Assembly (NCBI GenBank): GCA_031316145.1
Contig: JALDQZ010000012.1
Location: forward strand, 1-32,000
Direction of reading: 5' to 3'
DNA from: Candidatus Brocadiaceae bacterium
Lineage (GTDB): Bacteria; Planctomycetota; Brocadiia; Brocadiales; Brocadiaceae
Length of the DNA: 32,000 bases
This document shows, in pieces, positions 1,100-13,901 of this stretch. The notes beneath the pieces are model-generated. The model was not told the origin of the DNA and made no database searches. It saw only the letters and a program-made list of their open reading frames with translations. The translations under genes were made by a program, and so were the position numbers. Each line of letters opens with the position of its first letter. Within the stretch, counting starts at the first letter, position 1.

Positions 1100-2472
1100 A
1101 AACCATATTAATCGTAGATGATGATCCCGTCATAGTTGAATCCCTCCGTTGCATACTGCAGGATCATTATAACATTATAGGCTCAAATAGCGGAAGGGAC
1201 GCCCTGGGTGTGTTGGAAAAGGAATTGGTTGATCTCATTGTATTAGATTTGAAAATGCCTGGGATGGATGGAATGGAATTGTTAAGAAGGTTGCAACCGA
1301 ATAGAGACGCTCTGGGCATACTGGTTTTGACTGCGGTAAGCGATGTTAAATGTGTCGTTGAGGCTATGAAGTTGGGCGCGCTGGATTATATTGTCAAACC
1401 TTTTGATATTGAGGAGATTAAGGTAGCGGTGCATAGGGCGTTACAGTTAAGAAATTTAACGAGGGAAGTCCATTATCTTCGATCGGAATGCCGTAGCTAT
1501 TCCATCGACAGGATAATTCATGGTCACAGCAAAGCGATGACAGATGTTATTTATACAATTTCTCGAGTCTCCAGAGTTAACTCAACAGTCCTCATCAAGG
1601 GGGAAAGTGGCACAGGAAAGGAACTGGTTGCTCGTTCGATTCATTTTGACAGCGACCGGAGGGAATCGCCCTTTGTTGTGGTGAGTTGCTCAAACCTGGC
1701 AGATAATTTGTTGGAAACAGAGCTTTTTGGCCATGAGAAAGGCGCTTTTGCCGGAGCATATGAAAGAAAGTCGGGTAAATTTGAAGTAGCCGAAAGCGGC
1801 ACTATTTTTTTGGATGAGATTAGCGAGATGAGTCTTTCTTTGCAGGCAAAATTATTGCGAGTATTACGGGAGAGAGAGTTTGCCCGCATAGGGGGGCGCT
1901 CAGTCATAAAGACGGATGCTCGTGTCATTGCTGCCACAAATAAGGATCTTGAGGAAAAAATTAAGAGAGGTCATTTTCGTGAGGATCTCTACTATAGCAT
2001 GAACGTTGTTCCTGTTTATCTTCCGCCTGTCAGGGAAAGACCTGAAGATATTCCCCCGTTGATAGAACACTTCTACAATATTTTTCGAAGGGAGTGTCAC
2101 GCGAAAAGTGAATTCATTTCACGTGAAGCGATGGAGATATTATTGGAATATCGCTGGCCGGGAAATGTGAGAGAAATAAAGAACGTAATGGAAAGGGCGA
2201 TTGTGCTTTTTGGCTCTGAACCGATACTGCTTCCGGAGCACCTCCCTGTAGAACTTGCCGGGATTTCCGCTGGCATGCAAAAAGTAAAACCGGGTAATAC
2301 TATACGCATATCATTGGAAGATGAAGTCGGAAGGATAGAGAAGCAGCTTATTGAGCAGGCCATGCAAAAGTCTGGCGGCGTGAAATCAAAAGCGGCAAAA
2401 CTCCTCGGGACGACCCGAAGTGTTATTCATTATAAGATGCAAAAGTATGATATTCCTGATGTTGGCAGGTAA
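1096..2472 (+). CDS. NtrC-family sigma-54-dependent response regulator (REC + AAA+ + Fis-type HTH)
   Basis: REC domain (VDDDP, VLDLKMPGMDG). Walker A GESGTGKE and Walker B GTIFLDEI. The sigma-54 contact loop is present as GAFAGA (nt 1741-1758). C-terminal HTH AAKLLGTTRSVIHYKMQKY. Confidence 0.92.
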   Translation: MKTILIVDDDPVIVESLRCILQDHYNIIGSNSGRDALGVLEKELVDLIVLDLKMPGMDGMELLRRLQPNRDALGILVLTAVSDVKCVVEAMKLGALDYIVKPFDIEEIKVAVHRALQLRNLTREVHYLRSECRSYSIDRIIHGHSKAMTDVIYTISRVSRVNSTVLIKGESGTGKELVARSIHFDSDRRESPFVVVSCSNLADNLLETELFGHEKGAFAGAYERKSGKFEVAESGTIFLDEISEMSLSLQAKLLRVLREREFARIGGRSVIKTDARVIAATNKDLEEKIKRGHFREDLYYSMNVVPVYLPPVRERPEDIPPLIEHFYNIFRRECHAKSEFISREAMEILLEYRWPGNVREIKNVMERAIVLFGSEPILLPEHLPVELAGISAGMQKVKPGNTIRISLEDEVGRIEKQLIEQAMQKSGGVKSKAAKLLGTTRSVIHYKMQKYDIPDVGR

Positions 2473-2523: not shown

Positions 2524-3834
2524 TTAAAACTGGTAATTAAAGTTTATGGCCATTAGATAGTCAATAGAGTCGTATCTCCCATCGATAGATCCCTGTAACT
2601 CATCTCCTACAGAGTTAGTAATCCTTCTGTTTTCATACACGGCTATTCCGGAGGCAAAGTCTATCCATTTGTTCATTTTCCCCCCCCAGCGATATTCAAA
2701 CCCGGTAAACACTGCATGCCTGCTGCTCATGGGGATAGATGGCTCAAAGGTATCACTTGGTACAGGGGATTCATGAAATGCATAACCTCCTCGTAATTTT
2801 ATGGTTTCATTCAGCAGGTATTCTCCTCCAAGGGCAAATCCCAGAGTATTGTGCCAGTTTCGAACATCCTCATTGCCTCCATCGAGAATGGGGTTTGATG
2901 GTGCAAAATCGAATCTTAGCACATCAAACCTCGTCCAATTAGTCCACTGAACGTCTGCCTCTACACTCCATCGCTCCCGGTGTTTATATGCATAACCTAA
3001 AATAAGTATTTCAGGAAGCGTAAGGGTAGTTCTTGCTTTTGTAGAGAATGATTCTCCGCCAAATGCTTCTGCGGTTGCTCCGCTCAGATTGGAAAACTTT
3101 AGAGATCCTTTTGTGTCAATATCTGCTTTGCTTCGGAATGAAATACCAATAGTGTGTTGGGGTGTAATGTTGTAGAGTATCCCAATGTTGTACCCAACAC
3201 CATCGCCGTGAACATCATCAAGATCCTGAAATCCGTCCGGGGTTGTTGTGTCTTGAGGGGTGCCAGTTAAGGAAGCATTAAGAAGGCCTACGTTTACACG
3301 TTTTTCCACATCAGACTTGGCGTAGTAGTAATCAAGGCCTGCACCGATAGAAAGAAATGAGAATGGTTTAAAGGTAATGGTAGGGTTAACATTGAGAATA
3401 GCCAAATTAAAATCGGTCACTACGTATCTTGAAAACCCGTCTTCTTCCCAGTTGCCTCTCAAACCATAAGGTGCAGAAATACCAATTCCTGTGGCTAATT
3501 TATCCTCTATGAGCGGGCAGGCAAAAAAAAGATTTGGTATGGTGTTTATCCCCGTGCCCATATCCTCATGTATGCCGTTTCCATGGTACTCTACTTTGGG
3601 AATGACAAAGCTGGCGCCTGTGGAGATTTGCGGTCTTTTTAACTGAGTAAGTCCGGCAGGATTAAATATAATTGCAGATGCGTCATCTGCTCGGGCAACA
3701 AAGGCGTTTGCCTGTGCTAATCCTACGGCGCTGAAAGACGGACTATGGAATCCGGAGGCGATCTGTGCTGAGATATCCATTTCATGAACGAAGTACGATA
3801 CGAGGAAAACAAAAACTAGAAAGAGTTGTTTCAT
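2524..3834 (-). CDS. Outer-membrane hydrophobic-compound / long-chain fatty acid channel, OMPP1/FadL/TodX family
   Basis: N-terminal signal peptide. Family-typical N-terminal segment AVGLAQANAFVARADDASAIIFNPAGL. Alternating beta-strand pattern and a C-terminal aromatic end NFNYQF. Confidence 0.8.
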   Translation of the reverse strand: MKQLFLVFVFLVSYFVHEMDISAQIASGFHSPSFSAVGLAQANAFVARADDASAIIFNPAGLTQLKRPQISTGASFVIPKVEYHGNGIHEDMGTGINTIPNLFFACPLIEDKLATGIGISAPYGLRGNWEEDGFSRYVVTDFNLAILNVNPTITFKPFSFLSIGAGLDYYYAKSDVEKRVNVGLLNASLTGTPQDTTTPDGFQDLDDVHGDGVGYNIGILYNITPQHTIGISFRSKADIDTKGSLKFSNLSGATAEAFGGESFSTKARTTLTLPEILILGYAYKHRERWSVEADVQWTNWTRFDVLRFDFAPSNPILDGGNEDVRNWHNTLGFALGGEYLLNETIKLRGGYAFHESPVPSDTFEPSIPMSSRHAVFTGFEYRWGGKMNKWIDFASGIAVYENRRITNSVGDELQGSIDGRYDSIDYLMAINFNYQF

Positions 3835-4216: not shown

Positions 4217-4393
4217 TTTCATTTTTCATACTTTTGTTGGGTTGTAACAACAAAAAAATGTGCTATGGCACACCTGTGTATATGTCAGGCAAGTATGTCA
4301 TGAAATATTCTTCTATTTACATGAGAAATTGATAAAACTTCTATTGCGATGAAAATAAATAGCTTATGATTCTTTTTTAATAGTGTATGTTTT

Positions 4394-4408: not shown

Positions 4409-4456
4409 TTATATATCTATCAGGAATTTCAAAATCACGTAAGGTTTACGCCTGTT

Positions 4457-4469
4457 TGCATGCCATGCA
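4457..4469. promoter_or_regulatory. 13-bp perfect palindrome TGCATG-C-CATGCA (possible operator or RNA hairpin)
   Basis: Read directly from the sequence. Flanked by the partially complementary cctgt/acagg. It lies 143 bp upstream of the KS-like ATG. Confidence 0.25.
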
Positions 4470-4611
4470 CAGGTAGACAGGGTGGGTTTGATTCGGTGAT
4501 GGATTTTTGTTGTTGATGGAGAGGAAAGAGAGACATTACTTTTGAAAGCAGTGAAAAGGCAAATTTTAACTGTATCCCTTTCAGGTAAGTAATTACCGGA
4601 GCAATTTTTGA

Positions 4612-5841
4612 ATGAAAAAGAAAATCGTGATAACCGGCATGGGTATGGTGAGTTCCCTTGGCATCGGTCTTGATGAAAACTGGGAACGGTATCTATCCGG
4701 GGTATCGGAGATTAAGGAATATGAAATAGAAGGTATGGATTTAGTTACCCATGCGGGAAAGGTTTCGGATGACAAACTCGGCCCGTATATTCCTGAAAAG
4801 AAAAAGGGTAAGATTGATCGTTTTACCTGCTTTGCCATGGTTGCCTCGAAAATGGCGCTTGAGGACGCAAAAATTGATGAAGGATTTGAGAGAGAAAAGA
4901 TAGGCGTTTTTATCGGTAGCGCCTTTAGTGGGTTGAATATCATAGAAAAACAGCTCAAGGTGCTCTATCGTGAAGGCCCAAGAAGAGTTCATCCCCTTTT
5001 AATGCAAAATAATATCACCAATGCCTCATCAGGTGAGGTCGCTATTGAGTTTACCCTGAAAGGTCCCAATATTGGATTTGCAAGCGGAGGATGTTCTGCT
5101 GGCTACAGCTTGATTCAGGCATGTAATACCCTGCAGCTCCATGATATTGATGCCATAGTTGTTGGCGGGACTGAAGCTCCGTTGCTGCCCTATGTGTTTG
5201 CTGAATTAAAATCGAATGGTTTGTATCAAACAAACGGTTATGACCAAGACAAAGTGAGTCGTCCCTTTGATAGCGCGCGAAAAGGTTTTGTTCTCAGTGA
5301 GGGGTCCGGCGTGGTCATTTTGGAGACACTAAGAAGCGCGGAGAAAAGGGGCGCGGAAATATATGGAGAACTTGTAGGGTGTGGGGCTTCTTATGGGAAG
5401 AATAATTACACAAATCAACAAAACCACGGTTTTTTATCCAAGGTGGCCTGCATACAACAAGCGTTGGAGTCCGCGGCCATTCAGCCATCACAGGTAGAGT
5501 ATATAAACGCGAGCGGCATATCAGGGATAGAGGAAGACAGAGAAGAATCGGAGGTAATGCAAACGGTATTTGGAAGAGATGTCCAGAACATACCGGTAAG
5601 TTCGACGAAGGGCACTTTTGGTTACTCAATTGGCGCATCGGGTGCAATTGATGCGATCTTTTCATTATTGTCGTTAAAAAAACAAACATTGCCACAGACT
5701 CAGAATCTTGAGCATATTGATCCGTCATGTGGAACCATTCCTATTCTGAAAGAATCAATGGAAAAGCCGGTAAACATCATACTTTCAAATAACTTTGATT
5801 ATGCCGGCAATAATGTTTCGCTGGTATTTCGGCGTATTTAA
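4612..5841 (+). CDS. Beta-ketoacyl synthase-like protein (FabF fold) lacking both catalytic histidines (Cys/Ser/Tyr)
   Basis: Thiolase-fold KS motifs are present. Cys161 is kept in SGGCSAG (TGT 5092-5094). NASGISG replaces NAHGTST (Ser, AGC 5512-5514). SSTKGTFGYSIGASG replaces SSTKSMTGHLLGAAG (Tyr, TAC 5623-5625). The C-terminal FDYAGNN replaces FGFGGTN. Confidence 0.85.
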   Translation: MKKKIVITGMGMVSSLGIGLDENWERYLSGVSEIKEYEIEGMDLVTHAGKVSDDKLGPYIPEKKKGKIDRFTCFAMVASKMALEDAKIDEGFEREKIGVFIGSAFSGLNIIEKQLKVLYREGPRRVHPLLMQNNITNASSGEVAIEFTLKGPNIGFASGGCSAGYSLIQACNTLQLHDIDAIVVGGTEAPLLPYVFAELKSNGLYQTNGYDQDKVSRPFDSARKGFVLSEGSGVVILETLRSAEKRGAEIYGELVGCGASYGKNNYTNQQNHGFLSKVACIQQALESAAIQPSQVEYINASGISGIEEDREESEVMQTVFGRDVQNIPVSSTKGTFGYSIGASGAIDAIFSLLSLKKQTLPQTQNLEHIDPSCGTIPILKESMEKPVNIILSNNFDYAGNNVSLVFRRI

Positions 5842-5892
5842 TTGCTACATTTTTCGGCACAAAGGCAAAAAGGCGGAAGTCGCAAAGCACAA

Positions 5893-7137
5893 ATGAACAA
5901 ACTTACTAAAGAAAATAAGGTCGTTGTAACGGGGTTAGGGATCATTACTCCGATAGGGATTGGGGTTGATTCATTCTGGGATGCTGTCATTGCCGGAAAA
6001 TCCGGGATTTCATTGATCTCGCGGTTTGATATGGAAAATTATCCTACAAAGATTGCCGGAGAAATAAGGGATTTTTATCCTGAAAACTATATGTCTGAGG
6101 AACTGAAGAATTTTTTATGCAGAAGTTCTCAACTTGGAGTGGCAGCGGCTCAAATGGCATTGGATGATGCACGGTTAAATCTTTCCAATGTAAGGAATAG
6201 TAGTATTGGGATAACCATTGGATTGGGAGCTGAAACATTGTCCTACTACGATGAAAAAACGGCAATTGAGGAAAATAATTATACTTTGCGTTCAAATCCT
6301 CCCATAGAAAACAGGCATTTGACAAATATCATTTCCGATATTTTTCATCTTTCTGGTCAAAATGTTATTGTTGCAACGGCGTGTTCCAGTGGAAATCAGG
6401 CGATTGGTATTGCTCGAGACATGATTCAATCAGGTCAGGCAGACATCGTTCTGGCTGGCGGAGTTGAGGCGCCGATTTTTCCCCTGTATTTTGCGTCATT
6501 TTGCTCCTTGAGAATCATGTCGAAAAGAAACGATCAGCCTGAAAAGGCAAGCAGGCCGTTTGATAAGGAAAGGGATGGGTTTGTAATGGGTGAGGGCGCC
6601 GGGATATTGGTCATTGAGAGCGCTGAAAATGCGCACGAAAGGGGGGCGCCTATCTATGCTGAAATAGCGGGTTACGGCGCTACGAGTGACGCCTTTCACA
6701 TGACCATGCCTTCGAGGGATAGGAAAGAAATATGCAAGGCAATGCGTTCGGCAATACAGGATGCCGGTCTGGATATGAACGGCATTGACTATATCAATGC
6801 GCACGGGACATCAACACCGGCAAATGACAGTGGTGAAACGATGGCAATAAAAACCGTTTTTGGTGACAGGGCTTATGACATACCGGTAAGTTCAACGAAA
6901 TCAATGACAGGTCATTTAATTGGAGCTGCTGGCGCTGTAGAACTTATAACATGCATATTAGCAATGAAAAATTCTGTAATTCCGCCTACCATTAATTTAG
7001 AGCATCCAAGCCCTGATTGTGATCTGGACTATGTGGCTAATGAGGCGAGGGAAAAAGAAATTCGAACGGCTCTTTCGAATTCCTTTGGTTTTGGCGGAAA
7101 TAATTCGACCATTGTAGTAAAAAAAGTAATTCAATGA
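5893..7137 (+). CDS. fabF: Beta-ketoacyl-ACP synthase II (FabF-type), canonical Cys/His/His
   Basis: ATACSSG (Cys164, 6382-6384), NAHGTSTP (His304, 6802-6804), SSTKSMTGHLIGAAG (His341, 6913-6915) and NSFGFGGNN. I prefer the ATG at 5893 (MNKLTKENKVVVTGLG) to the TTG at 5842 used in the ORF track. Confidence 0.88.
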   Translation: MNKLTKENKVVVTGLGIITPIGIGVDSFWDAVIAGKSGISLISRFDMENYPTKIAGEIRDFYPENYMSEELKNFLCRSSQLGVAAAQMALDDARLNLSNVRNSSIGITIGLGAETLSYYDEKTAIEENNYTLRSNPPIENRHLTNIISDIFHLSGQNVIVATACSSGNQAIGIARDMIQSGQADIVLAGGVEAPIFPLYFASFCSLRIMSKRNDQPEKASRPFDKERDGFVMGEGAGILVIESAENAHERGAPIYAEIAGYGATSDAFHMTMPSRDRKEICKAMRSAIQDAGLDMNGIDYINAHGTSTPANDSGETMAIKTVFGDRAYDIPVSSTKSMTGHLIGAAGAVELITCILAMKNSVIPPTINLEHPSPDCDLDYVANEAREKEIRTALSNSFGFGGNNSTIVVKKVIQ

Positions 7138-7143
7138 TTAGGA

Positions 7144-7263
7144 ATTTTGAAACATGTTTAGTGTGCGCAAGCACATATTTCAAAATGGCGTGAAGCGACT
7201 ACATGAGTGTCGTTGTAGCCAATTTGTAAAAGTAGCTTCTGCCTGTGCTCGACGGACAGGCAG
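7144..7263 (+). other. Two stem-loops in the KS2-ACP spacer
   Basis: First structure: attttgaaa (7144-7152) pairs with tttcaaaat (7178-7186), enclosing an inner tgtgc-GCAA-gcaca hairpin (7162-7175). Second structure: ctgcctgt (7239-7246) pairs with acaggcag (7256-7263) around a 9-nt loop. Neither is followed by a U tract. Confidence 0.4.
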
Positions 7264-7310
7264 GATGCGCTTAACTAGAAAGGTAAAAATTTTTATAGGG
7301 AGAGAAAAAT

Positions 7311-7577
7311 ATGGATAATGTGACGGATAATGATATTAAGGAAAGGCTAAAAAAAATACTGGCAAAGGAACTGAAGATGGAGCCTGAGGATATTTCCGAT
7401 GATGCGCACATTACTGATGATATCGGAGTTGAATCTGCGGAAATGATTAATCTCTTATATGATATAGAAAGTGAGTTTAACATAGAAGTCTCTAATGAAG
7501 AGGCAAGTCAGAACTTAGTCATATGCAAAATGACAAATTTGATAAAAGAAAAAATGGAAATGAAGTCTGTAAAATAA
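7311..7577 (+). CDS. Acyl carrier protein, divergent (GVESAE instead of GxDSL)
   Basis: An 88-aa acidic protein. DDIGVESAEMINLLYDIESEF aligns to AcpP [20 protein letters not shown], with the putative phosphopantetheine Ser42 at 7434-7436. Good RBS (gggagag). Confidence 0.8.
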   Translation: MDNVTDNDIKERLKKILAKELKMEPEDISDDAHITDDIGVESAEMINLLYDIESEFNIEVSNEEASQNLVICKMTNLIKEKMEMKSVK

Positions 7578-7599
7578 ATTTAACGCATAGGAGGAATTT

Positions 7600-7713
7600 C
7601 AAAGCGAGAGATCGCTTTGCTGACCCCTTATTTCATTCAGGGCTATGGCTTATTCTCAATGACAAAAATCAGGGAAAATGCCATTGAGGGTAAGGGATGA
7701 TGAAGCGATCTCT
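7600..7713 (+). other. Structured ACP-radical SAM spacer: local hairpin plus an 11-nt long-range complement
   Basis: Hairpin caaagcga-gaga-tcgctttg (7600-7619). The segment agagatcgctt (7607-7617) is perfectly complementary to aagcgatctct (7703-7713), so the two pairings are mutually exclusive. Confidence 0.35.
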
Positions 7714-7782
7714 TTTCAATTTTCTTGGCGGTCTCTGTGGTTAATTTTTTGATAATGACTTTTGTTTTTTAAGGGGCACAAA

Positions 7783-9567
7783 ATGATTTGTTCACGGGGC
7801 ATGGACATACTGCTTTGGAATTCTTTTATGGGCAAGGCCTATTCTGTCAGTGACTGTTTTAAAGAAAATGGCATTGGGTTGCTGGTCAGGGCATGTAAAG
7901 ACGCAGGTTTTTCCATGACGGTTGAAGACCCTGCAAGGATTGATTTTTATTCGTCATTTACAAAAAATGAACTTGAACCGGAGCTTTCAAGGCTCTCAGC
8001 GCATGTGTTTGGCAAGAAAAATGGTGAAGATAGCGCGTCATTACGCAAGGAGTGGGATTCTCTTCAAGAGAATCTCTCTTGTGCCATCAAAGGAAAAATG
8101 GAGGAATATCTCAATAGTCTTGCAAAAAAAGTGCGTGATGAACAGGTAAAAGTGCTGGGGATTAAGACCTGGCTGGGAGATAGATTTACGTACTCCGAGG
8201 AGCTCACCCGAAAGGTAAACCAACTGAGCCCGAATACCATCGTCATTGCCGGCGGTCCACAGGTCAATCAATTCAAAATCCATGCGCTTGAAGAAAGCCC
8301 TTTTGACTTCTGCATAGATGTTGAGGGGGAAACAACATTGACCAAAATTGTGGCTATGGTAAAAGAAATGTATGGGAGGGGTTGTAAAAAGGTAGAAGTA
8401 ATCAACAGGATAACTGAGCTTGCAAAGACCGGTGAACTGCAAAACCTTATTTACCGGGACGCTGATAATACCATAAGAGAATCAACGATCAGACGATTGC
8501 CCTTAAACAAAAAAACTTTTCCCCTCTATGAAAAAGAAGATGGAAAGGCAGATATCGCGGTAATTAATGAATCTTCGGGCTGCTATTATGGAAAGTGTGG
8601 CTTTTGTTCCCATCCAAACATTACCGGGAAATATCAAACCAGGGATGTGGACATTACCCTTCAGGAGATAAAAGAGAACATTCAAAAATATAGTATCGGA
8701 CTCTTCCGGTTTGCGGGATCTGTTACCCCAGCTTCTCTGGGCAGGAAGATTGCCAATGCAATAGTAAAAGAAGGATTGCATATTGAGTATTCCATGTTTG
8801 TCAGGGCTGAAAATAGAGCAAAGGCCCGAATTACTGAACTGATCAATACGTACGAGGAAATGATTCGTTCCGGACTTCGGGCCGTTTTCATGGGTGTTGA
8901 GGCTGTGGACAAAAAGCTCCTTTCAGAGAGCATGCAGAAAGGAAGTTCCATTGCAGACATGTATTATACCATCAAGGCCCTGAAACAGGCATCCTATAAT
9001 CAGGGAATGCCTGTTGATGTAGGAGTAAGTTTTATTTATCCGTGCCCGATTCCTTCAAATACTGGAACAACTCATGAAAAGGTGTTAGAAAAAAATTTGT
9101 GTTTCCTGCGCTCATTAAAAATCGAGAATTTTATGCCGGATTCCGTGCTTATCACCCCGGGTGTGCCTCTTCCCCTGACAGCATGGCAATTAAAGCCAAA
9201 ACAGTTCGGTTTTGATCTGCCTGAAGATTATGTTCAAAAAATTATACGGTATGAGTATGAACTCACAAAGGACCCAAGTGTATGGCCAGATCTGGATATC
9301 ACTTCAAACGGAATCAGGTTTAAGGATATGTTGAAGATGTCAGGGCAGATGGAAAAGAAGGTCAGGAAAATGGGGTATACGGTAAATGTGTCTGACGAAC
9401 ATTGTCTGGCTGCAAGAAGTTCCGGTTTTGTCGGGCAGAAAGGATTAGAAGAATTTAAGTTAAAGAGTGACATGGCATTACTTACCACCGATTATCGCTT
9501 CCTGAGAGAGGTGTATAACAAAATAAATTCATACAGCAGGGCGCTGGCTGAGAAAAATAATTCATAG
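7783..9567 (+). CDS. Radical SAM enzyme with N-terminal cobalamin-binding-like domain (class B-like) and non-canonical CX4CX2C cluster motif
   Basis: The N-terminal Rossmann-like segment IVIAGGPQVNQF...DFCIDVEGETTLTKIV resembles B12-binding radical SAM domains. Cluster motif GCYYGKCGFCSH (Cys codons at 8581, 8596, 8605). I saw no SPASM-type C-terminal Cys pattern. The ATG at 7783 has an aagggg RBS, whereas the track ORF starts at TTG 7762. Confidence 0.8.
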   Translation: MICSRGMDILLWNSFMGKAYSVSDCFKENGIGLLVRACKDAGFSMTVEDPARIDFYSSFTKNELEPELSRLSAHVFGKKNGEDSASLRKEWDSLQENLSCAIKGKMEEYLNSLAKKVRDEQVKVLGIKTWLGDRFTYSEELTRKVNQLSPNTIVIAGGPQVNQFKIHALEESPFDFCIDVEGETTLTKIVAMVKEMYGRGCKKVEVINRITELAKTGELQNLIYRDADNTIRESTIRRLPLNKKTFPLYEKEDGKADIAVINESSGCYYGKCGFCSHPNITGKYQTRDVDITLQEIKENIQKYSIGLFRFAGSVTPASLGRKIANAIVKEGLHIEYSMFVRAENRAKARITELINTYEEMIRSGLRAVFMGVEAVDKKLLSESMQKGSSIADMYYTIKALKQASYNQGMPVDVGVSFIYPCPIPSNTGTTHEKVLEKNLCFLRSLKIENFMPDSVLITPGVPLPLTAWQLKPKQFGFDLPEDYVQKIIRYEYELTKDPSVWPDLDITSNGIRFKDMLKMSGQMEKKVRKMGYTVNVSDEHCLAARSSGFVGQKGLEEFKLKSDMALLTTDYRFLREVYNKINSYSRALAEKNNS

Positions 9568-9588
9568 TTTAAAAAATGCATATCTAAA

Positions 9589-9615
9589 AAGGCACAAAGA
9601 CAGCGGGAACAAAGG
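9589..9615. repeat. Left imperfect inverted repeat flanking the four-helix-bundle cassette
   Basis: aaggcaca (9589-9596) and ggaacaaagg (9606-9615) recur as reverse complements at 9966-9973/9989-9996 and 9977-9986. Confidence 0.55.
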
Positions 9616-9623
9616 AGCAAAGG

Positions 9624-9961
9624 ATGATAAGGAGTTATAGGGATCTAAAAATACGGTAGTATATTCGATAACAAAGTTATTGCCAAAAGAGGAGTTATAT
9701 GGATTGGTATCCCAAGTCAGGAAAAGTGCCGTTTCTATGCCAAGTAATATTGCAGAGGGTTACGGAAGAAACTCTACCAATGAGTATATTCGATTTCTCC
9801 AAATATCGAGTGGCTCTTTGTATGAATTACAAACTCAACTTTTGATTTGTTTAAAATTAAGATACTTATCAAAAGAAACATTTGAAAGCACGTATGAGAA
9901 GAGCAGAGAAATAGAAAGAATATTTAGCCGCTTAATAAAAAAATTGGATAAAAACAATTAA
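9624..9961 (+). pseudogene. Four-helix-bundle protein of the 23S rRNA intervening-sequence (S23-like, PF05635-type) family, disrupted near the 5' end
   Basis: The family core is AVSMPSNIAEGYGRNSTNEYIRFLQISSGSLYELQTQL. The ATG at 9624 gives the family-typical MIRSYRDLKI and then a stop at 9657. Helix 1 resumes in another frame (VVYSITKLLPKEELYGL), which implies a small deletion plus a frameshift. Only a TTG-initiated 93-aa remnant (9680-9961) is open. Confidence 0.65.
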
Positions 9962-9963
9962 AC

Positions 9964-9996
9964 TCTGTGCCTTCTGCCTTTGTTCCTCTGTGCCTT
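9964..9996. repeat. Right imperfect inverted repeat flanking the cassette (contains ctgtgcctt twice)
   Basis: tgtgcctt occurs at 9966-9973 and 9989-9996, and cctttgttcc at 9977-9986. These are reverse complements of the motifs at 9589-9615. Confidence 0.55.
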
Positions 9997-10074
9997 AATA
10001 GCTGCGATATTTCAAATTTTTCAACAAAGTTTATTGTTACTTTTTGAACTCCTTTCTTTATACAGATACATCTC

Positions 10075-11331
10075 ATGATGAAAAGACGAGTGGTGATTAC
10101 CGGTCTGGGGATATTGGCCCCGAATGGAATTGGAAAAGAGGCTTACTGGGACGCAATCATCAATGGTCGATCAGGAATAAACAGAATTTCCTCGTTTGAT
10201 CCTTCTTCTTTCACGACTCAGATTGCTGGTGAGGTGGAAAATTTTGATCCAAAAGACTATGTTGATTCAAGGATGGTGGCTCGATGTGGGAGATTTACCC
10301 ATTTTGGTATTGCAGCCTCAAGAATGGCAACTGCTGATGCCGGTATAGACTTCAGCAAGGAAAACAAGGAGAGATGTGGTGTCTGTTTTGGCACCACATT
10401 AGGCCCGAATAATGATGTGTATGAAACACAGCACAGGAAATTTATAAGTTCTGGTCCTCTGTCTGTGGGACGTCTTACACCAGTTGAGATTACACCGCAT
10501 GTGACGACGGGCTATATCTGTTCAGATCTTCATATTGCCGGGCCGAATTCTACGCTTACTTCAGGATGTTCAACCGGGCTCGATGTGATGGGTTGGGGGC
10601 ACAAAATGATACAACAGGGGAAGATCGATGTTGCGGTTATCGGGTGCGCAGATACGCCAATCTTTCCGTTTATTTTGTCTGCTTTATGTAACCTGGGAAT
10701 TCTTTCCAGGAGTAATAAGGAGCCAGAAAAGGCCTCAAGGCCATATGACAAAAGACGTGATGGCATGGTGCTCAGTGAAGGTGGTGTTTCAATTGTGCTG
10801 GAGGAATTACATCATGCCCTGGATAGGGGCGCGGATATCTATGCCGAGGTATTGTCCTTTGCCTCTACCTGCGATGCTCAGGATATCGTGAATGCTGATA
10901 CCGGCGGGCAGGCTCTGATTTCCGCAATGGAAGAGGTTTTGGTGAGCGGCAGAGTTGGAAAAGAGGAGATAGATTATATTTGTGCCCACGGAAATAGCAT
11001 GCCTTCCTATGATATTGCAGAAACAAATGCCTTTAAGGCCTTCTTTGGTGAGCGTTCGTACAGAATTCCTGTAAGTTCCATTAAATCCATGACTGGTCAA
11101 TCATTTGCTGCCGGAGGCGGGTTTCAGGTGGTGGCAACGAGCCTTAGTCTTAAAAATGGGTTTGTTCCTCCCACCATTAATCTGGACGAACCAGATCCTC
11201 TCTGTGACCTTGATTACGTACCCCATGAAGCCAGACGGTTTTCCATGGAAACCGCCCTGATAAATAGTCATAGTGTTGGAAATACCCATGCAGCTCTTGT
11301 GTTGCGAAGATTTTCTGGAGAAGGAAGGTAA
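10075..11331 (+). CDS. Beta-ketoacyl synthase paralogue with Cys/His/Gln triad
   Basis: TSGCSTG (Cys165, 10567-10569), CAHGNS (His305, 10987-10989), SSIKSMTGQSFAAGG (Gln342, CAA 11098-11100, at the second His position). The C-terminal NSHSVGNTH replaces NSFGFGGTN. Confidence 0.85.
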   Translation: MMKRRVVITGLGILAPNGIGKEAYWDAIINGRSGINRISSFDPSSFTTQIAGEVENFDPKDYVDSRMVARCGRFTHFGIAASRMATADAGIDFSKENKERCGVCFGTTLGPNNDVYETQHRKFISSGPLSVGRLTPVEITPHVTTGYICSDLHIAGPNSTLTSGCSTGLDVMGWGHKMIQQGKIDVAVIGCADTPIFPFILSALCNLGILSRSNKEPEKASRPYDKRRDGMVLSEGGVSIVLEELHHALDRGADIYAEVLSFASTCDAQDIVNADTGGQALISAMEEVLVSGRVGKEEIDYICAHGNSMPSYDIAETNAFKAFFGERSYRIPVSSIKSMTGQSFAAGGGFQVVATSLSLKNGFVPPTINLDEPDPLCDLDYVPHEARRFSMETALINSHSVGNTHAALVLRRFSGEGR

Positions 11332-13901
11332 TGACTATGTTCCAGGCAACCTACATTTTGATAAGTTTGTGTATTGGAGGCCTTGGGATATTTGTGTTCC
11401 TGAAAGATCCAAGAAACAGTATTAATAAAAGATTTTTTCTCTACACATTGGTGATAGCAGTATGGGTATTTTCTATTAATCTTACCCTTCTAGCAAAAGA
11501 TACAACGATAGCGACTTCTAGACTAAGAATTGTTTTTTCTGTAGCTTCTCTTATGGGACCAAGTTTTTTTTTCTTTTCATCGGTATTTCCGGACCGAAAA
11601 GAAAGAACTTTTCAAAGATATCTGTGTCTTTTGTTCTTTGCAGCAAGTATCATTTTCATATGTACTTCCCCCTCATTAGTGAAAAAATCGGCTTTTGAAG
11701 GCGATAAAATACGTGCTGAATATGGTTCCCTTTTCATCCTGTTTTGGATTCACCTTTTAAGCTGTATGGGATATTCTTTCTACATCCTTTACAAGAAAAT
11801 CCGTTGGGCTTACGGCGTTACGAGATTACAGATTCAATATGTATTTTTTGGAATAGTGTTATTTGTTTTATGTGCTTTTATTACAAATTTTCTCTTTCCA
11901 TTGTTTGGTTTGTGGCAGGCTGAACAGTATGTCCCACTGACAGCCATTCCCATTCCGATAATGATTGCGATTGCGATTGTAAAGTATCACCTCATGGATA
12001 TTACCGTGGTGCTGAGGAAGAGCACGATGTATGCTGTTCTGACGGTCGTCCTGAGTTTTATCTATATTTTTGTTTGGGTAATTGTGGGTAACCTGTTGAA
12101 GATACCAGAATATAAAGAAGCTGTTACTGCTGTTGTTTCCACATCGGTGATGGTCTTTACTTTTGTTTTAACCGGAGAATCAATCCAGTATTTTGTTGAA
12201 AAGACCTTGTTTCGGACCAAATACAGTAGCTCAAAGATCCTGAGTGATTCTACGGCAATACTTTCATCCATTCATGATTTGCCGGGACTTCTTCATTCTG
12301 CGATCCAATATTTATATGATTCTGTAGGTATGGAGAAGATAAGTGTATTTCTCCGGGATGAAACACACAGTCATTATACCCTGAGGGCTTCAATAAAATT
12401 TCCGATAGATGCAAAATCTATTATTCACTGCGATAACGCCATTGCTACCAGGCTTTCTCAAAATAAAACGGTTTTATCACTTGATCAGTTAAAACGTTTC
12501 CATCGAAGAAAATCCGATGTCTTGTTGATAGACGTTTTGGAGCAACTTGACGTTGATAGCTGTATACCATTGGTTCAGGGGAATGATCTCATCGGTTTCA
12601 TTTTTTTGGGGAAAAAGATAAATAAAAAGGTTTATACACTGGATGATATCCAGATGTTTATTGCATTTTCCGGTCAAATGGCCCTGGCTGTAAGGAATGC
12701 CCACCTGTACCTGGGATTGAAAGAATCCATGGTCTACAGGGACAACATCCTTGAGAGTTTAAGAAGTGGAGTTATTGTTATAGATTATAATGAAGAGGTT
12801 ACCCTGATAAACTATGAGGCAAAAAAAATAATCGGGAAGAAAAATATGCAATCAAGCAAAACGATACTTGCTGCTCTTGGGAAAGACACATACCGGTTGC
12901 TGAGATATACGCTGAAAAACGATACAGAATTCAAAAATGTTGAAACCACTATCAAGAAAGGTGATGAAATAAATCTCTACAGCGTGACGACAACACAATT
13001 GAAAACGGAAACCGGTGAAAAACTTGGGGCTTTAATGATTCTTACCGATTTGACAGAACTGAAAATGCTTCAGGCTGAAAAACAACATTCCGAAAGATTG
13101 GCGTATCTTGGCACCCTTGCCGCGAATATTGCCCATGAGATAAGGAATCCACTTGTTCCTATCAACACCTATTTCCAGCTTCTTCCCCAAAAGAAGGGAG
13201 ATGAAAAATTTCATACGGAATTTCGAACGTTAGCGCTCAATGAAATAGGCAGGATCAACAGAATCATTGAAGAGATGTTGGACCTGGCAAAACCTTCCAA
13301 TCCTATTTTACAACCGATAAATCCTCACCGTGTGATAATGGAAACCATAAAATTACTCAGAGATACTGTATCAGAGAAGGATATTGAAATAGTTACAGAA
13401 TTAAACGAAATAAACTGTCAGCTTTGTGCCGATGAAGATAAGGTGCGGCAGGTCATGGTCAACATTTTGCAAAACAGCATTGAAATCCTGCCAAAAAATG
13501 GGCATATTCAGGTAAGCACAATCTTGATAGATGGCCTTTCTTATTTTAAGAAAAAGGCGAAAAAACACCCTAGTAGCATTTTCTTTTCCTTTGTTCCCTC
13601 AGTGTTACATGACGAAAATAAACAGTTTTTTGTAATGAAGGTATCCGATAATGGCAAAGGTATTTCGGCAGAAAAGATGCAGTATATTTTTGAACCGTTT
13701 TTCACGGATAAAAATAAAGGAACAGGACTTGGATTGGCAGTGGTATACAGAATCGTAAAGGATCATGAAGGTTGTATTTATGTTGAAAGTCAGGAAGACA
13801 AGGGAACAGACTTTTATATTTGCTTTCCAATAAACCAGGTCAATGTGTACCTGTTTCCTGCCGATCAAGAAAAAACACTGGAAAGTTCTCACTCCTTATA
13901 A
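11331..13901 (+). CDS. Polytopic membrane sensor histidine kinase (about 8-9 TM N-domain, GAF, PAS, HisKA, HATPase)
   Basis: Hydrophobic N-terminal 290 aa. H-box ANIAHEIRNPL, N-box VNILQNSIE, G1 SDNGKGI, G2 GTGLGLAV. The start ATG overlaps the KS3 stop (TAATG at 11329-11333) and is preceded by ggagaaggaagg. Confidence 0.88.
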   Translation: MTMFQATYILISLCIGGLGIFVFLKDPRNSINKRFFLYTLVIAVWVFSINLTLLAKDTTIATSRLRIVFSVASLMGPSFFFFSSVFPDRKERTFQRYLCLLFFAASIIFICTSPSLVKKSAFEGDKIRAEYGSLFILFWIHLLSCMGYSFYILYKKIRWAYGVTRLQIQYVFFGIVLFVLCAFITNFLFPLFGLWQAEQYVPLTAIPIPIMIAIAIVKYHLMDITVVLRKSTMYAVLTVVLSFIYIFVWVIVGNLLKIPEYKEAVTAVVSTSVMVFTFVLTGESIQYFVEKTLFRTKYSSSKILSDSTAILSSIHDLPGLLHSAIQYLYDSVGMEKISVFLRDETHSHYTLRASIKFPIDAKSIIHCDNAIATRLSQNKTVLSLDQLKRFHRRKSDVLLIDVLEQLDVDSCIPLVQGNDLIGFIFLGKKINKKVYTLDDIQMFIAFSGQMALAVRNAHLYLGLKESMVYRDNILESLRSGVIVIDYNEEVTLINYEAKKIIGKKNMQSSKTILAALGKDTYRLLRYTLKNDTEFKNVETTIKKGDEINLYSVTTTQLKTETGEKLGALMILTDLTELKMLQAEKQHSERLAYLGTLAANIAHEIRNPLVPINTYFQLLPQKKGDEKFHTEFRTLALNEIGRINRIIEEMLDLAKPSNPILQPINPHRVIMETIKLLRDTVSEKDIEIVTELNEINCQLCADEDKVRQVMVNILQNSIEILPKNGHIQVSTILIDGLSYFKKKAKKHPSSIFFSFVPSVLHDENKQFFVMKVSDNGKGISAEKMQYIFEPFFTDKNKGTGLGLAVVYRIVKDHEGCIYVESQEDKGTDFYICFPINQVNVYLFPADQEKTLESSHSL

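What the first reader, a model, noticed from the sequence alone, without database searches (positions are those of the whole stretch)
7783..9567. Cobalamin-domain radical SAM with CX4CX2C spacing embedded between the ACP and KS3
Seen: the cluster-binding motif reads C-YYGK-C-GF-C (8581-8607), one residue longer than the canonical CX3CX2C. The N-terminal 250 aa carry a Rossmann-like segment (IVIAGGPQVNQF...DVEGETTLTKIV) of the kind found in B12-binding (class B) radical SAM enzymes. The C-terminal 280 aa carry no SPASM/twitch-like Cys pattern that I can see. Established: class B radical SAM enzymes methylate or otherwise functionalise unactivated carbons, and a minority of radical SAM families use non-canonical Cys spacing. 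Inference: its placement directly after a dedicated ACP suggests that it acts on an ACP-tethered acyl chain, by C-C bond formation/cyclisation or by C-methylation.
Basis: partly seen in the sequence, partly recalled or inferred. Interest (0 to 1): 0.7.

Follow-up and report, generated by a model that had tools for sequence, protein, structure and literature searches.

The report
Uncharacterised B12 radical SAM in signalling island
This gene from an anammox bacterium encodes a real cobalamin-type radical SAM enzyme with an unusual but already known iron-sulfur motif. It belongs to an unstudied family that is consistently linked to fatty-acyl-handling enzymes and sensor kinases, so it probably modifies a lipid-like regulated or signalling molecule and is not a proven ladderane enzyme.

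Summary
ORF 7783-9567 encodes a 594-aa class B (cobalamin-domain) radical SAM protein. Its only conserved cysteines form C267-X4-C272-X2-C275 (nt 8581-8607), and there is no auxiliary-cluster motif.

- **Motif.** The extra residue marks this subfamily (CX4 or CX5). A sister clade has canonical CX3. The spacing has a precedent in OxsB.
- **Origin.** The window comes from a Brocadiaceae (anammox) MAG.
- **Not a known candidate.** The protein is not Kuste2803 or Kuste3608, the published ladderane-candidate radical SAM enzymes, and no curated family claims it.
- **The ACP/KS1/KS2 neighbours are lineage-specific.** They occur in about 11 of 33 anammox loci.
- **The conserved anammox core** is sensor kinase/sigma54 regulator, then rSAM, then an atypical ketosynthase (Cys-His-Gln), then a 7TM kinase. 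A REC-HD-GYP regulator and FadL lie nearby.
- **Outside anammox,** homologues sit beside, or are fused to, FeeM-type N-acyltransferases, acyl ligases and UbiE-like methyltransferases, again with kinases.

Best reading: it modifies a fatty-acyl-derived molecule, by C-methylation or C-C chemistry, in a regulated and possibly signal-producing pathway. A ladderane role is unlikely but not excluded. This is a new variant of a known kind, of moderate interest.

The parts
7783..9567 (+). B12-domain radical SAM protein, 594 aa. This is the finding.
   Evidence: Translation. Pfam B12-binding and Radical_SAM. 100% identical to NCBI MAG protein MRJ65_17425, Ca. Brocadiaceae. AF2 pLDDT 93.7. Foldseek best matches TsrM and OxsB. 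Start codon and RBS conserved.
7807..8427 (+). Cobalamin-type Rossmann domain, residues ~9-215, with a long helical insertion (res ~53-119)
   Evidence: Secondary structure of the AF2 model. Pfam B12-binding hit on res 112-189. HMMER alignment to the OxsB Cbl domain.
8158..8172 (+). [quoted passage not shown] W130 aligns with OxsB Asn186, the residue under the cobalt.
   Evidence: G126, K128 and W130 are invariant in 59 sequences. Alignment to OxsB GLSVN. Motif definition from PMC9204698.
8251..8256 (+). Gly157-Gly158, the base-off cobalamin 'GG' motif on strand 4
   Evidence: Invariant. Motif definition.
8326..8331 (+). Gly182-Glu183, the 'GE' motif at the start of helix 5
   Evidence: G182 invariant and E183 at least 90% conserved. 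Motif definition.
8581..8607 (+). [4Fe-4S]-binding Cys loop C267-YYGK-C272-GF-C275 (CX4CX2C). It is followed by near-invariant H277.
8548..9162 (+). Radical SAM partial-barrel core, residues ~256-460
   Evidence: Pfam Radical_SAM on res 265-406. AF2 strand/helix pattern. Foldseek matches.
9163..9564 (+). C-terminal mostly helical domain, residues ~461-594. It has no conserved Cys. Invariant W468, W501, D538, E539 and G548 make it the probable substrate cap.
   Evidence: [quoted passage not shown]
4612..5841 (+). KS1: FabF-like protein that keeps the Cys but has Ser and Tyr in place of the two catalytic His. It resembles a chain-length-factor or 'FabF-mut' type. Part of a lineage-specific block.
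   Evidence: Orthologues at 59-71% identity occur only in anammox MAGs, then identity drops to 40%.
5842..7137 (+). KS2: canonical Cys-His-His FabF-like ketosynthase that abuts KS1. Part of a lineage-specific block.
   Evidence: (TIGR03150 514 bits).
7311..7577 (+). Acyl carrier protein, 88 aa. Part of a lineage-specific block.
   Evidence: Pfam PP-binding 34.8 bits. NCBIfam ACP models. Present next to the rSAM in only ~11 of 33 anammox loci.
9584..10001 (+). Insertion specific to this genome: a degraded 23S-rRNA-IVP/four-helix-bundle gene (ORF 9680-9961; N-terminal remnant ATG at 9624 in another frame) flanked by imperfect inverted repeats
   Evidence: Absent from the other anammox loci, where rSAM and KS3 abut or overlap.
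10075..11331 (+). KS3: atypical ketosynthase with Cys-His-Gln in place of Cys-His-His, and NSHSVGG in place of NSFGFGG. It is the universal anammox partner of the rSAM.
   Evidence: Alignment with E. coli FabF (sequence recalled from memory) and three KS3 orthologues. Present in 23 of 23 well-flanked anammox loci.
11331..13901 (+). Sensor histidine kinase (HisKA_7TM-GAF-PAS-HisKA-HATPase, PrsK-like). Its ATG overlaps the KS3 stop codon (TAATG).
   Evidence: The gap between KS3 and the kinase is 3-14 nt in nearly all anammox loci.
1096..2472 (+). Sigma-54-dependent response regulator (REC-AAA-HTH), conserved upstream of the rSAM in many anammox loci
38..1099 (+). Histidine kinase. The ORF as listed starts at nt 38, but orthologues are 484-720 aa and the NCBIfam matches begin about 290 positions into kinase models, so its 5' end may lie beyond the window. 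Conserved upstream partner.
2524..3834 (-). FadL/TodX-type outer-membrane channel for hydrophobic molecules. It is conserved in the anammox islands but sits at a different place in this genome.

Best explanation
The gene encodes a member of an uncharacterised subfamily of class B (cobalamin-domain) radical SAM enzymes.

**Shown here.**
- One [4Fe-4S] site made by C267/C272/C275 in an OxsB-like CX4CX2C loop, and no auxiliary cluster.
- Intact GG, GE and downstream cobalamin motifs, with an invariant Trp (W130) at the position under the cobalt.
- A family-specific C-terminal helical domain.

**Inferred mechanism.** The reduced cluster cleaves SAM to a 5'-deoxyadenosyl radical, which abstracts a hydrogen from an unactivated carbon of a fatty-acyl-derived substrate. 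Then one of two things happens. Either methylcobalamin delivers a methyl group (C-methylation, the default class B chemistry, favoured by the bulky TokK-like Trp under the cobalt). Or the substrate radical forms or rearranges a C-C bond, as in the non-methylating OxsB and BchE.

**Inferred substrate.** It is the product or substrate of the enzyme that always accompanies the rSAM. In anammox bacteria that partner is the atypical Cys-His-Gln ketosynthase KS3. In this lineage KS3 is fed by a KS/CLF-like pair (KS1/KS2) and an ACP. In other phyla the partner is a FeeM-type acyl-ACP/CoA-dependent N-acyltransferase, an acyl ligase or a UbiE-type methyltransferase.

**Inferred role.** The biosynthetic pair is packed in one operon with sensor kinases and response regulators (sigma-54 activator, 7TM kinase, REC-HD-GYP). 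In other lineages the acyltransferase is itself fused to REC or cNMP-binding domains. The product is therefore most likely a tightly regulated hydrophobic metabolite. A lipid-derived signal is plausible, in a circuit that works like the Rpf/DSF fatty-acid signalling system. It is probably not a bulk housekeeping lipid.
For: **Enzyme class.** Searches give the motifs, the model (pLDDT 93.7) and the best structural matches TsrM, OxsB and AprD4.

**Subfamily.** 227 clusters at 50% identity score E<=1e-30. The core has CX4/CX5CX2C and the sister clade has CX3. No NCBIfam model reaches even a fifth of its cut-off.

**Acyl link.**
- KS3 is adjacent in 23 of 23 well-flanked anammox loci.
- FeeM-like (20) or AMP-ligase (4) genes lie within 5 kb in 21 of 25 well-flanked non-anammox loci.
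- Fusion proteins exist: P0292 is FeeM-rSAM and P0299 is FeeM-cNMP-rSAM. P0329, P0082, P0084 and P0088 are rSAM-methyltransferase fusions.

**Signalling link.**
- A kinase or receiver lies within 5 kb in 23 of 23 anammox loci and 19 of 25 other loci.
- The KS3 stop overlaps the 7TM-kinase start in the window, and the gap is 3-14 nt elsewhere.
- In loci without the KS1-KS2-ACP block, the sigma54 regulator ends tens of nucleotides before the rSAM start.
- A REC-HD-GYP regulator with intact HD and GYP motifs is in 22 anammox loci. It overlaps the rSAM start in Latescibacterota-type loci.
- The FeeM partner is fused to cNMP-binding in Sporomusaceae and to a weak REC in L079.
- PilZ, a MacB/LolA-like exporter, and FadL or a TonB receptor are nearby.
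Against: - No biochemical data exist for any family member, and guilt by association cannot name a substrate.
- Kinases next to a gene may only mean transcriptional control of a membrane-lipid modification.
- Anammox loci lack FeeM, so the anammox and non-anammox enzymes (at most 44% identical) may act on different substrates.
- The family gives weak hits of similar size to RiPP, phosphinate, tetrapyrrole and lipid class B enzymes alike (54-63 bits).
- The FeeM assignment of the Desulfatibacillum neighbour is weak (Pfam E 2.4e-4).
- No sigma-54 promoter consensus was found upstream of KS1, ACP, rSAM or KS3, in the window or in 20 orthologous loci.
- Cobalamin binding is inferred. AprD4 has the same fold, and from my own knowledge it does not use cobalamin.
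Confidence: 0.5

Rival explanations
1. The enzyme acts on an acyl chain tethered to the adjacent ACP (7311-7577) and built by KS1/KS2, making a specialised anammox membrane lipid. In its strongest form it forms the cyclobutane rings of ladderanes.
For: - KS1 (CLF-like), KS2, ACP, rSAM and KS3 are co-directional with short gaps.
- KS/CLF-like heterodimers and B12 radical SAM enzymes are the current ladderane suspects (bioRxiv 10.64898/2026.05.19.726425; PMC13459092).
- The rSAM-KS3 pairing is confined to anammox bacteria among the loci recovered.
- The closest solved relative by sequence, OxsB, also has CX4CX2C. From my own knowledge, OxsB makes a four-membered ring.
Against: - The KS1-KS2-ACP block is missing from most anammox loci that keep rSAM-KS3, including Kuenenia hertensis, Jettenia, B. 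sinica and B. sapporoensis, and KS1 orthologues are not seen in those genera.
- No Scalindua homologue appeared in two searches of 5.8 billion proteins, one of them seeded with the Scalinduaceae-related Anammoxibacter protein. From my own knowledge, Scalindua makes ladderanes.
- Homologues occur in Sporomusaceae, Desulfatibacillum, Latescibacterota, Omnitrophota and others.
- It is not Kuste2803/3608: TIGR04072 scores 54 bits against a 360 cut-off, and BLASTP against the Kuste2803 N-terminus gives E 0.93.
Confidence: 0.15
2. It is a regulated bulk membrane-lipid modifier, for example a mid-chain C-methylase of phospholipid or aminolipid acyl chains. The flanking two-component systems would merely control its expression, in the manner of DesK/DesR.
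For: - Most class B enzymes are methylases, and lipid examples exist (HpnP/HpnR; PMC13459092).
- An invariant bulky Trp lies under the cobalt position, as in TokK.
- FeeM-related GNATs include aminolipid N-acyltransferases such as OlsB (own knowledge).
- FadL and LolA/MacB-like lipid-trafficking genes are nearby.
- From my own knowledge, anammox bacteria and Desulfobacteraceae contain 10-methyl-branched fatty acids whose anaerobic origin is unclear.
Against: - The acyltransferase partner is itself fused to REC or cNMP-binding domains.
- The regulators include HD-GYP and PilZ second-messenger proteins rather than only DNA-binding regulators.
- The enzymes are translationally coupled to a kinase.

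This pattern fits a signalling output better than housekeeping lipid remodelling.
Confidence: 0.22
3. It is a peptide or protein (RiPP-type) modifying class B radical SAM enzyme, and the acyl-enzyme neighbours are incidental.
For: - A weak hit to TIGR03975, RiPP C-methyltransferase (61 bits), and sister-clade hits to ApyD.
- In Desulfatibacillum, a cluster of two B12-rSAMs, a SPASM rSAM and a 50-aa ORF lies a few kb away on the other strand.
Against: - 61 bits against a cut-off of 282.
- No precursor-like ORF, protease or RiPP recognition gene is conserved next to the rSAM across 77 loci.
- The FeeM-rSAM fusions tie it to acyl transfer.
- There is no SPASM/twitch cluster.
Confidence: 0.06
4. 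The B12-like domain does not bind cobalamin. The protein would then be an AprD4-type class B look-alike that does simple 5'-dA radical chemistry such as dehydration, epimerisation or desaturation on its substrate.
For: - AprD4 is among the best structural matches (E 1e-11).
- The Pfam B12-binding score is below the gathering threshold.
- There is no cobalamin riboswitch in the window.
Against: The GG, GE and GxKxW motifs that contact cobalamin in OxsB, TsrM and TokK are invariant or nearly so across the family. TsrM and OxsB match better than AprD4.
Confidence: 0.07

Closest known systems
OxsB (oxetanocin A biosynthesis; PDB 5UL2-4)
   Same: - Best sequence match among solved structures (E 4e-9 over res 96-387) and a top structural match.
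- Same CX4CX2C Cys loop (GCDYSRCTFC against GCYYGKCGFC).
- Same GG and GE cobalamin motifs, and a helical C-terminal domain.
   Different: - About 14% identity.
- OxsB has a separate N-terminal domain. Here the Rossmann fold starts at residue 9 and carries a helical insertion.
- Trp130 replaces OxsB Asn186 under the cobalt.
- OxsB acts on a nucleotide together with the HD phosphohydrolase OxsA (own knowledge). Here the partners are acyl-handling enzymes.
TsrM and TokK (structurally characterised cobalamin radical SAM methylases)
   Same: - TsrM is the best Foldseek match (E 6e-17, TM 0.57).
- Like Arg69 of TsrM and Trp76 of TokK, a bulky invariant residue (W130) sits in the downstream cobalamin motif.
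   Different: - 13% identity.
- Canonical CX3CX2C in TokK.
- Different C-terminal domains.
- Their substrates are tryptophan and a carbapenem, not lipids.
Kuste2803 / Kuste3608 / TIGR04072 'lipid biosynthesis B12-binding/radical SAM protein' (published ladderane candidates)
   Same: An anammox B12-domain radical SAM enzyme encoded next to FabF-like ketosynthases and an ACP.
   Different: - A different protein family: 54 bits against the 360 cut-off.
- The Kuste2803 N-terminal 128 aa show no significant similarity (E 0.93).
- The kuste2802-2805 cluster (AcpS, rSAM, FabF, non-canonical FabB) is a different locus.
- Kuste2803-like genes occur as separate neighbours in L043, L045 and L060.
Rpf/DSF fatty-acid signalling (RpfF synthase, RpfB acyl-CoA ligase, RpfC membrane kinase, RpfG REC-HD-GYP); composition from my own knowledge
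   Same: - Same logic of parts across the family's loci: an acyl-chain enzyme, a membrane sensor kinase, a REC-HD-GYP regulator, and in some lineages an AMP-dependent acyl ligase and PilZ proteins.
   Different: - No crotonase (RpfF) is present. The putative synthase would be rSAM plus KS3 or FeeM.
- The window itself holds no HD-GYP gene.
- No signal molecule is known.
FeeM-type N-acyl amino acid synthases and the PEP-CTERM-associated acyltransferase TIGR03694 with PrsK/PrsR
   Same: - The non-anammox partners match Pfam FeeM (up to 140 bits in fusion P0292) and weakly match TIGR03694.
- The window's 7TM kinase and sigma54 regulator weakly resemble PrsK/PrsR (98 and 377 bits).
   Different: All scores are below the curated cut-offs. 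No exosortase or PEP-CTERM genes were seen. The anammox loci have KS3 in place of FeeM.

Membership tests
Radical SAM superfamily | Three-Cys [4Fe-4S] motif at the start of a partial TIM barrel | tested here: met
   C267/C272/C275 invariant. Pfam Radical_SAM 29.7 bits against 29.5. Barrel fold matches rSAM structures. The spacing is CX4CX2C rather than CX3CX2C.
Class B (cobalamin-dependent) radical SAM | N-terminal Rossmann cobalamin-binding domain with GG, GE and downstream motifs | tested here: met
   G157-G158, G182-E183 and G126-x-K128-x-W130 are conserved and align to the OxsB motifs. TsrM and OxsB are the best structural matches. Pfam B12-binding is marginal (29.8 against 32.1).
Class B (cobalamin-dependent) radical SAM | Actual cobalamin binding and use | not testable with these tools
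   Needs purified protein. AprD4 shows that the fold alone is not proof.
TIGR04072 / Kuste2803-Kuste3608 ladderane-cluster B12 rSAM | Score at or above the curated cut-off (360 bits), and orthology to Kuste2803 | tested here: not met
   54.3 bits. BLASTP of the Kuste2803 N-terminal 128 aa (from S2 Table of PMC4790861) against the window protein gives E 0.93.
Ladderane biosynthesis enzyme (functional class) | Present in all ladderane-producing genera and absent elsewhere | tested here: not met
   Homologues occur in many non-anammox phyla. No Scalindua homologue was found in two protein searches. The absence rests on database coverage, so it is not absolute.
SPASM/twitch radical SAM | C-terminal Cys-rich auxiliary-cluster motif | tested here: not met
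   No conserved Cys outside the CX4CX2C loop. No SPASM Pfam hit.
OxsB-like enzymes | CX4CX2C loop; separate N-terminal domain; Asn/water lower cobalt ligand environment | tested here: inconclusive
   Loop spacing is shared. The N-terminal domain is absent and Trp replaces Asn. Only E 4e-9 and 14% identity.
RiPP C-methyltransferase TIGR03975 | Score at or above 281.85 bits, and a precursor peptide nearby | tested here: not met
   61.2 bits. No conserved small-ORF neighbour across the loci.
Rpf/DSF-type signalling system | RpfF crotonase synthase together with RpfC-type kinase and RpfG REC-HD-GYP | tested here: not met
   No crotonase in the window. A kinase is present (11331-13901). REC-HD-GYP is present in 22 orthologous anammox loci but not inside this window. 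This is a resemblance of logic only.

The most novel reading that the evidence does not exclude
This radical SAM family may be the signature enzyme of an unrecognised module for making and sensing a lipid-derived signal. The module is spread across anaerobic phyla: anammox Brocadiaceae, Sporomusaceae, Desulfatibacillum, Latescibacterota, Omnitrophota, Gemmatimonadota and others.

In this reading, a B12 radical SAM enzyme plus an acyl-transfer enzyme (FeeM-type GNAT, or the Cys-His-Gln ketosynthase in anammox) builds a modified fatty-acyl signal. Co-transcribed membrane kinases read the signal out, and it is relayed to sigma-54 and HD-GYP/c-di-GMP outputs. That would be an Rpf/DSF-like circuit with a completely different synthase.

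A still bolder sub-reading is that the anammox rSAM-KS3 pair takes part in ladderane ring formation. I give that about 0.05.
Probability: 0.3. Interest if true: 0.8.

Novelty: new variant of a known kind. Interest (0 to 1): 0.52.

Why it matters
**For anammox biology.** This B12 radical SAM/ketosynthase locus lies outside the 34 genes tested so far as ladderane candidates. A careless reader would equate it with Kuste2803, and it is not that gene. The evidence here argues against a core ladderane role, which saves effort. It points instead to a regulated hydrophobic metabolite that may bear on aggregation or community behaviour in anammox reactors.

**For radical SAM enzymology.** The work defines a compact subfamily of about 227 clusters at 50% identity. 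The subfamily has an OxsB-type CX4/5CX2C loop, an invariant Trp under the cobalt position, and fusions to FeeM acyltransferases and class I methyltransferases. That gives concrete substrate hypotheses (acyl-ACP/CoA, N-acyl amino acids) and culturable source organisms (Sporomusa, Desulfatibacillum, Anaerospora) in which to test them.

**More broadly.** A recent review states that radical SAM modification of fatty-acyl (non-isoprenoid) lipids is almost unknown (PMC13459092).

Tried and rejected
1. **Equating the gene with Kuste2803, the 'ladderane' B12 rSAM.** Rejected after recovering the Kuste2803 5' sequence from the supplement of PMC4790861.
2. **Assigning a curated family.** The best NCBIfam and Pfam hits are generic class B hits far below their cut-offs, for the core family and the sister clade alike.
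3. **Sigma-54 promoter search** (TGGCAC-N5-TTGCA, up to 2 mismatches, GG/GC fixed) upstream of KS1, ACP, rSAM and KS3, in the window and in 20 orthologous loci. Nothing was found, and the window-wide count is no higher than in shuffles. The sigma-70 and terminator scans were uninformative.
4. **Riboswitch or other RNA elements,** including cobalamin and SAM riboswitches. No Rfam hit was found at gathering thresholds or at E<=1 over 3800-10100.
5. **Literature search** for a FeeM plus radical SAM plus kinase system, or an anammox quorum-sensing link. Nothing relevant turned up.
7. **Looking up the Scalindua japonica KS1-like fragment's contig** failed.
8. **KS3 as orthologue of Kuste2804/2805.** Only 33-37% identity to the available N-terminal fragments, so it is not orthologous.
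9. **TTG 7762 as the start codon.** Rejected in favour of the conserved ATG at 7783.


Full report
**What is in the window.**

The 32-kb window (about 41% GC) comes from an anammox bacterium.
- The protein encoded at 7783-9567 is 100% identical to NCBI entry MRJ65_17425 of a Candidatus Brocadiaceae MAG.
- The downstream genes include a Rieske/cytochrome b/multihaem/HAO-like set, which from my own knowledge resembles those of anammox genomes.

On the + strand the relevant genes are:

| Coordinates | Gene |
|---|---|
| 38-1099 | histidine kinase |
| 1096-2472 | sigma-54 response regulator |
| 2524-3834 (- strand) | FadL |
| 4612-5841 | KS1 |
| 5842-7137 | KS2 |
| 7311-7577 | ACP |
| 7783-9567 | radical SAM gene |
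| 9680-9961 | 23S-rRNA-IVP/four-helix-bundle remnant |
| 10075-11331 | KS3 |
| 11331-13901 | HisKA_7TM-GAF-PAS histidine kinase |

**Checking the observation.**

- The translation contains GCYYGKCGFC. C267, C272 and C275 fall exactly at nt 8581-8607, so the motif is CX4CX2C.
- In alignments of 21 and 59 family members these are the only invariant cysteines.
- The quoted 'Rossmann-like segment' carries the invariant Gly157-Gly158 and Gly182-Glu183.
- A family profile aligns residues 96-387 to OxsB (E 4e-9). That places G126-x-K128-x-W130 on OxsB's G182-x-S184-x-N186. The review PMC9204698 defines these as the GG, GE and downstream cobalamin-binding motifs.
- The Pfam scores are marginal: B12-binding 29.8 against 32.1, and Radical_SAM 29.7 against 29.5.
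- An AlphaFold model built on the 59-sequence alignment is very confident (pLDDT 93.7, pTM 0.92). Its best PDB matches are the cobalamin radical SAM enzymes TsrM (E 6e-17) and OxsB (E 3e-15), followed by AprD4.
- The Rossmann fold starts at residue 9 and has a helical insertion at about residues 53-119. The C-terminal ~135 residues are mostly helical.
- The ATG at 7783 is the true start. It aligns with the starts of 20 orthologues behind a conserved TTTAGG(A/G) motif.

**Is CX4CX2C special?**

It is a real clade marker.
- An exhaustive profile search of 1.84 billion representatives found 227 clusters at E<=1e-30.
- Among sequences of at least 480 aa, the core family has CX4CX2C (131) or CX5CX2C (5; the Desulfatibacillum and methyltransferase-fused clade). 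A more distant sister clade of about 545 aa has the canonical CX3CX2C (88).

It is not unprecedented. OxsB reads GCDYSRCTFC and queuine lyase reads CIWGKCSFC, and the review writes the loop of cobalamin radical SAM enzymes as Cys-X3-4-Cys-X2-Cys.

**It is not the published ladderane candidate.**

[quoted passage not shown] 2009 (PMC2649909) and expressed by Javidpour et al. 2016 (PMC4790861).

- The codon-optimised 5' sequence of kuste2803 in their S2 Table translates to MKKLVLINPHPMGNVGEEN.... It has no significant similarity to the window protein (BLASTP E 0.93).
- The true Kuenenia hertensis orthologue of the window protein is 66% identical.
- The TIGR04072 model ('lipid biosynthesis B12-binding/radical SAM protein') scores 54 bits against a cut-off of 360.
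- The kuste2802-2805 cluster (AcpS, rSAM, FabF, non-canonical FabB) is a different locus. KS3 is only 33-37% identical to the available Kuste2804 and Kuste2805 fragments.

The window's locus therefore lies outside the 34 genes examined so far. No NCBIfam model comes near its cut-off for the core family or the sister clade.

**Context in anammox bacteria.**

A scan of one genome per species returned 77 loci. In every anammox locus with enough flank, the rSAM is followed by KS3 and then the 7TM kinase. It is preceded by a REC-PAS kinase and usually the sigma-54 regulator (23 of 23 well-flanked loci).

The packing is tight.
- In the window the KS3 stop and the kinase start overlap (TAATG). Elsewhere the gap is 3-14 nt.
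- In loci without the KS1-KS2-ACP block, the sigma-54 regulator's stop lies tens of nucleotides upstream of the rSAM start.
- A REC-HD-GYP response regulator with intact HD and GYP motifs and a FadL channel sit just upstream on the other strand in 22 and 18 anammox loci respectively.

- It occurs in only 11 of the 33 anammox loci, plus the window.
- It is patchily distributed on an rSAM tree.
- It is absent from the Kuenenia hertensis, Jettenia, B. sinica, B. sapporoensis, B. pituitae, Loosdrechtia, Wunengus and Anammoxibacter loci.
- KS1 orthologues (59-71% identity) were found only in a subset of anammox MAGs. The next hits are generic FabF at 40%.

The IVP gene between rSAM and KS3 is a degraded insertion peculiar to this genome. 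It is flanked by imperfect inverted repeats.

**The ketosynthases.**

These were aligned to E. coli FabF, whose sequence I recalled from memory.
- KS2 has the canonical Cys-His-His triad.
- KS1 keeps the Cys but has Ser and Tyr in place of the histidines. The abutting KS1/KS2 pair therefore resembles a KS/chain-length-factor pair. It recalls the amxFabF2/amxFabF-mut heterodimer of the other anammox cluster but is distinct from it, because Kuste3606 lacks the Cys.
- KS3 has Cys-His-Gln and NSHSVGG in place of NSFGFGG. Both changes are conserved in the three KS3 orthologues aligned. A condensing enzyme that lacks the second decarboxylation histidine may act as an acyltransferase, but that is an inference.

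**Context outside anammox.**

The nearest non-anammox homologues (42-44% identity) are in Desulfatibacillum and related Desulfobacterota. Versions at 30-37% identity occur in Sporomusaceae, Latescibacterota, Gemmatimonadales, Glassbacteria, Omnitrophota, Kiritimatiellae and others. None has a KS or ACP neighbour.

Clustering of the neighbouring genes and Pfam scans show recurrent operons instead.
- Sporomusaceae: PAS kinase, then FeeM-type N-acyltransferase fused to a cNMP-binding domain, then rSAM.
- Latescibacterota-type: TonB receptor, binding protein, HAMP kinase, REC, REC-HD-GYP (overlapping the rSAM start), rSAM, FeeM-like protein, UbiE-like methyltransferase.
- Omnitrophota and Planctomycetales: FeeM, AMP-dependent acyl ligase, rSAM, MacB/LolA-like exporter, PilZ.
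- Desulfatibacillum: FeeM-like protein, rSAM, hybrid kinase.

Of 25 well-flanked non-anammox loci, 20 have a FeeM-like gene, 21 have some acyl-handling enzyme and 19 have a kinase or receiver within 5 kb.

Gene fusions give the strongest evidence that the enzyme works in one pathway with an acyl-transferring enzyme and often a second methyltransferase.
- P0292 is FeeM-rSAM.
- P0299 is FeeM-cNMP-rSAM.
- P0329, P0082, P0084 and P0088 are rSAM-methyltransferase.
- In L079 a weak-REC/FeeM-like gene overlaps the start of an rSAM-methyltransferase gene, downstream of two kinases.

**Interpretation.**

The common denominator of all partners (KS3, KS/CLF+ACP, FeeM, acyl ligase) is an activated fatty-acyl chain.

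The chemistry cannot be read from sequence. The invariant Trp130 at the position that tunes the cobalt environment resembles the bulky residues of the methylases TokK and TsrM rather than the Asn/water of OxsB. This tilts the balance slightly towards C-methylation.

The second constant is signalling. Kinases are co-transcribed with the enzymes. The regulators include a sigma-54 activator, REC-HD-GYP and PilZ. The acyltransferases are gated by REC or cNMP domains. This is the logic of a signal-synthase/sensor cassette. Its closest functional analogue is the Rpf/DSF system, which from my own knowledge consists of an acyl-derived signal, the RpfB ligase, the RpfC membrane kinase and the RpfG REC-HD-GYP regulator. 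No RpfF crotonase is present, so this is a resemblance and not membership.

The sober alternative is a membrane-lipid modification under two-component control.

**Ladderanes.**

A role in ladderane synthesis is unlikely.
- The family is widespread in bacteria not known to make ladderanes.
- No Scalindua homologue was found, even with the Anammoxibacter protein as query.
- The ACP/KS-CLF block is dispensable in most anammox genera.

It is not excluded, for two reasons. The rSAM-KS3 pairing is confined to anammox bacteria among the loci recovered. The anammox clade is at most 44% identical to the rest and could have acquired a new function.

**Verdict.**

The gene is an uncharacterised, well-delimited variant of class B radical SAM enzymes whose genomic associations appear unreported in the searchable literature. 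Interest is moderate. The in-silico case is coherent and yields testable substrates and tractable organisms, but the function remains inferred.

Noticed in passing
window 9584-10001: A degraded 23S-rRNA-intervening-sequence-protein (four-helix-bundle) gene is inserted between the rSAM and KS3. An N-terminal remnant (ATG at 9624, MIRSYRDLKIR*) lies in a different frame from the main ORF 9680-9961. The element is flanked by imperfect inverted repeats (9584-9623 and 9965-10001). It is absent at this position in all other anammox loci examined.
   Followed up: partly
window 4612-7137: KS1 (Cys-Ser-Tyr, both catalytic His lost) directly abuts KS2 (canonical Cys-His-His). This looks like a second anammox KS/chain-length-factor-like pair, distinct from the published amxFabF2/amxFabF-mut pair, in which the mutant subunit lacks the Cys. 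KS1 orthologues are restricted to a subset of anammox genomes.
   Followed up: partly
window 10075-11333: KS3 has Gln in place of the second catalytic His, and NSHSVGG in place of the NSFGFGG gatekeeper motif. Both changes are conserved in the three aligned anammox KS3 orthologues. Its stop codon overlaps the start of the 7TM sensor kinase (TAATG).
   Followed up: partly
window 7600-7619: A perfect 8-bp hairpin (CAAAGCGA-GAGA-TCGCTTTG) sits in the 205-nt ACP-rSAM spacer. It is not followed by a T-run and its function is unknown.
   Followed up: no
window 20595-23688: Cluster of a small sulfite/nitrite-reductase-like protein with a ferredoxin insert, a DsrE-like protein, a PLP-dependent CysK/CysM-like enzyme, a JAB/MPN peptidase and TusA. 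This resembles a sulfur-carrier-protein (CysO/Mec-type) cysteine biosynthesis set.
   Followed up: no
window 23982-30890: Rieske protein, NAD(P)/FAD oxidoreductase with Fe-S domains, cytochrome b, multihaem cytochromes and an HAO-like multihaem protein in a row. From my own knowledge this matches the anammox-type Rieske/cytochrome b complex gene sets. It supports the anammox origin of the window.
   Followed up: no
L078 14548-20441 (Desulfatibacillum aliphaticivorans) and L028: A few kb from the homologous rSAM, on the opposite strand, lie two BchE/ApyD-like B12 radical SAM genes, a SPASM radical SAM gene, a 551-aa beta-propeller-like protein and a 50-aa ORF. This is a RiPP-like cluster, possibly unrelated to the finding.
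   Followed up: no
L060 13246-14649 (Ca. Anammoxibacter), also L043 and L045: A Kuste2803-like B12 radical SAM gene (39% identity to the Kuste2803 N-terminus) lies directly downstream of KS3 in Anammoxibacter and near the family rSAM in two non-anammox loci. The two B12-rSAM families therefore sometimes co-occur.
   Followed up: no
window 1096-4611 compared with L080/L081: This genome is rearranged relative to other anammox loci. FadL lies between the sigma-54 regulator and KS1 instead of upstream of the first kinase. The REC-HD-GYP regulator found next to FadL elsewhere is not inside the window. A 777-nt non-coding stretch (3835-4611) precedes KS1.
   Followed up: partly
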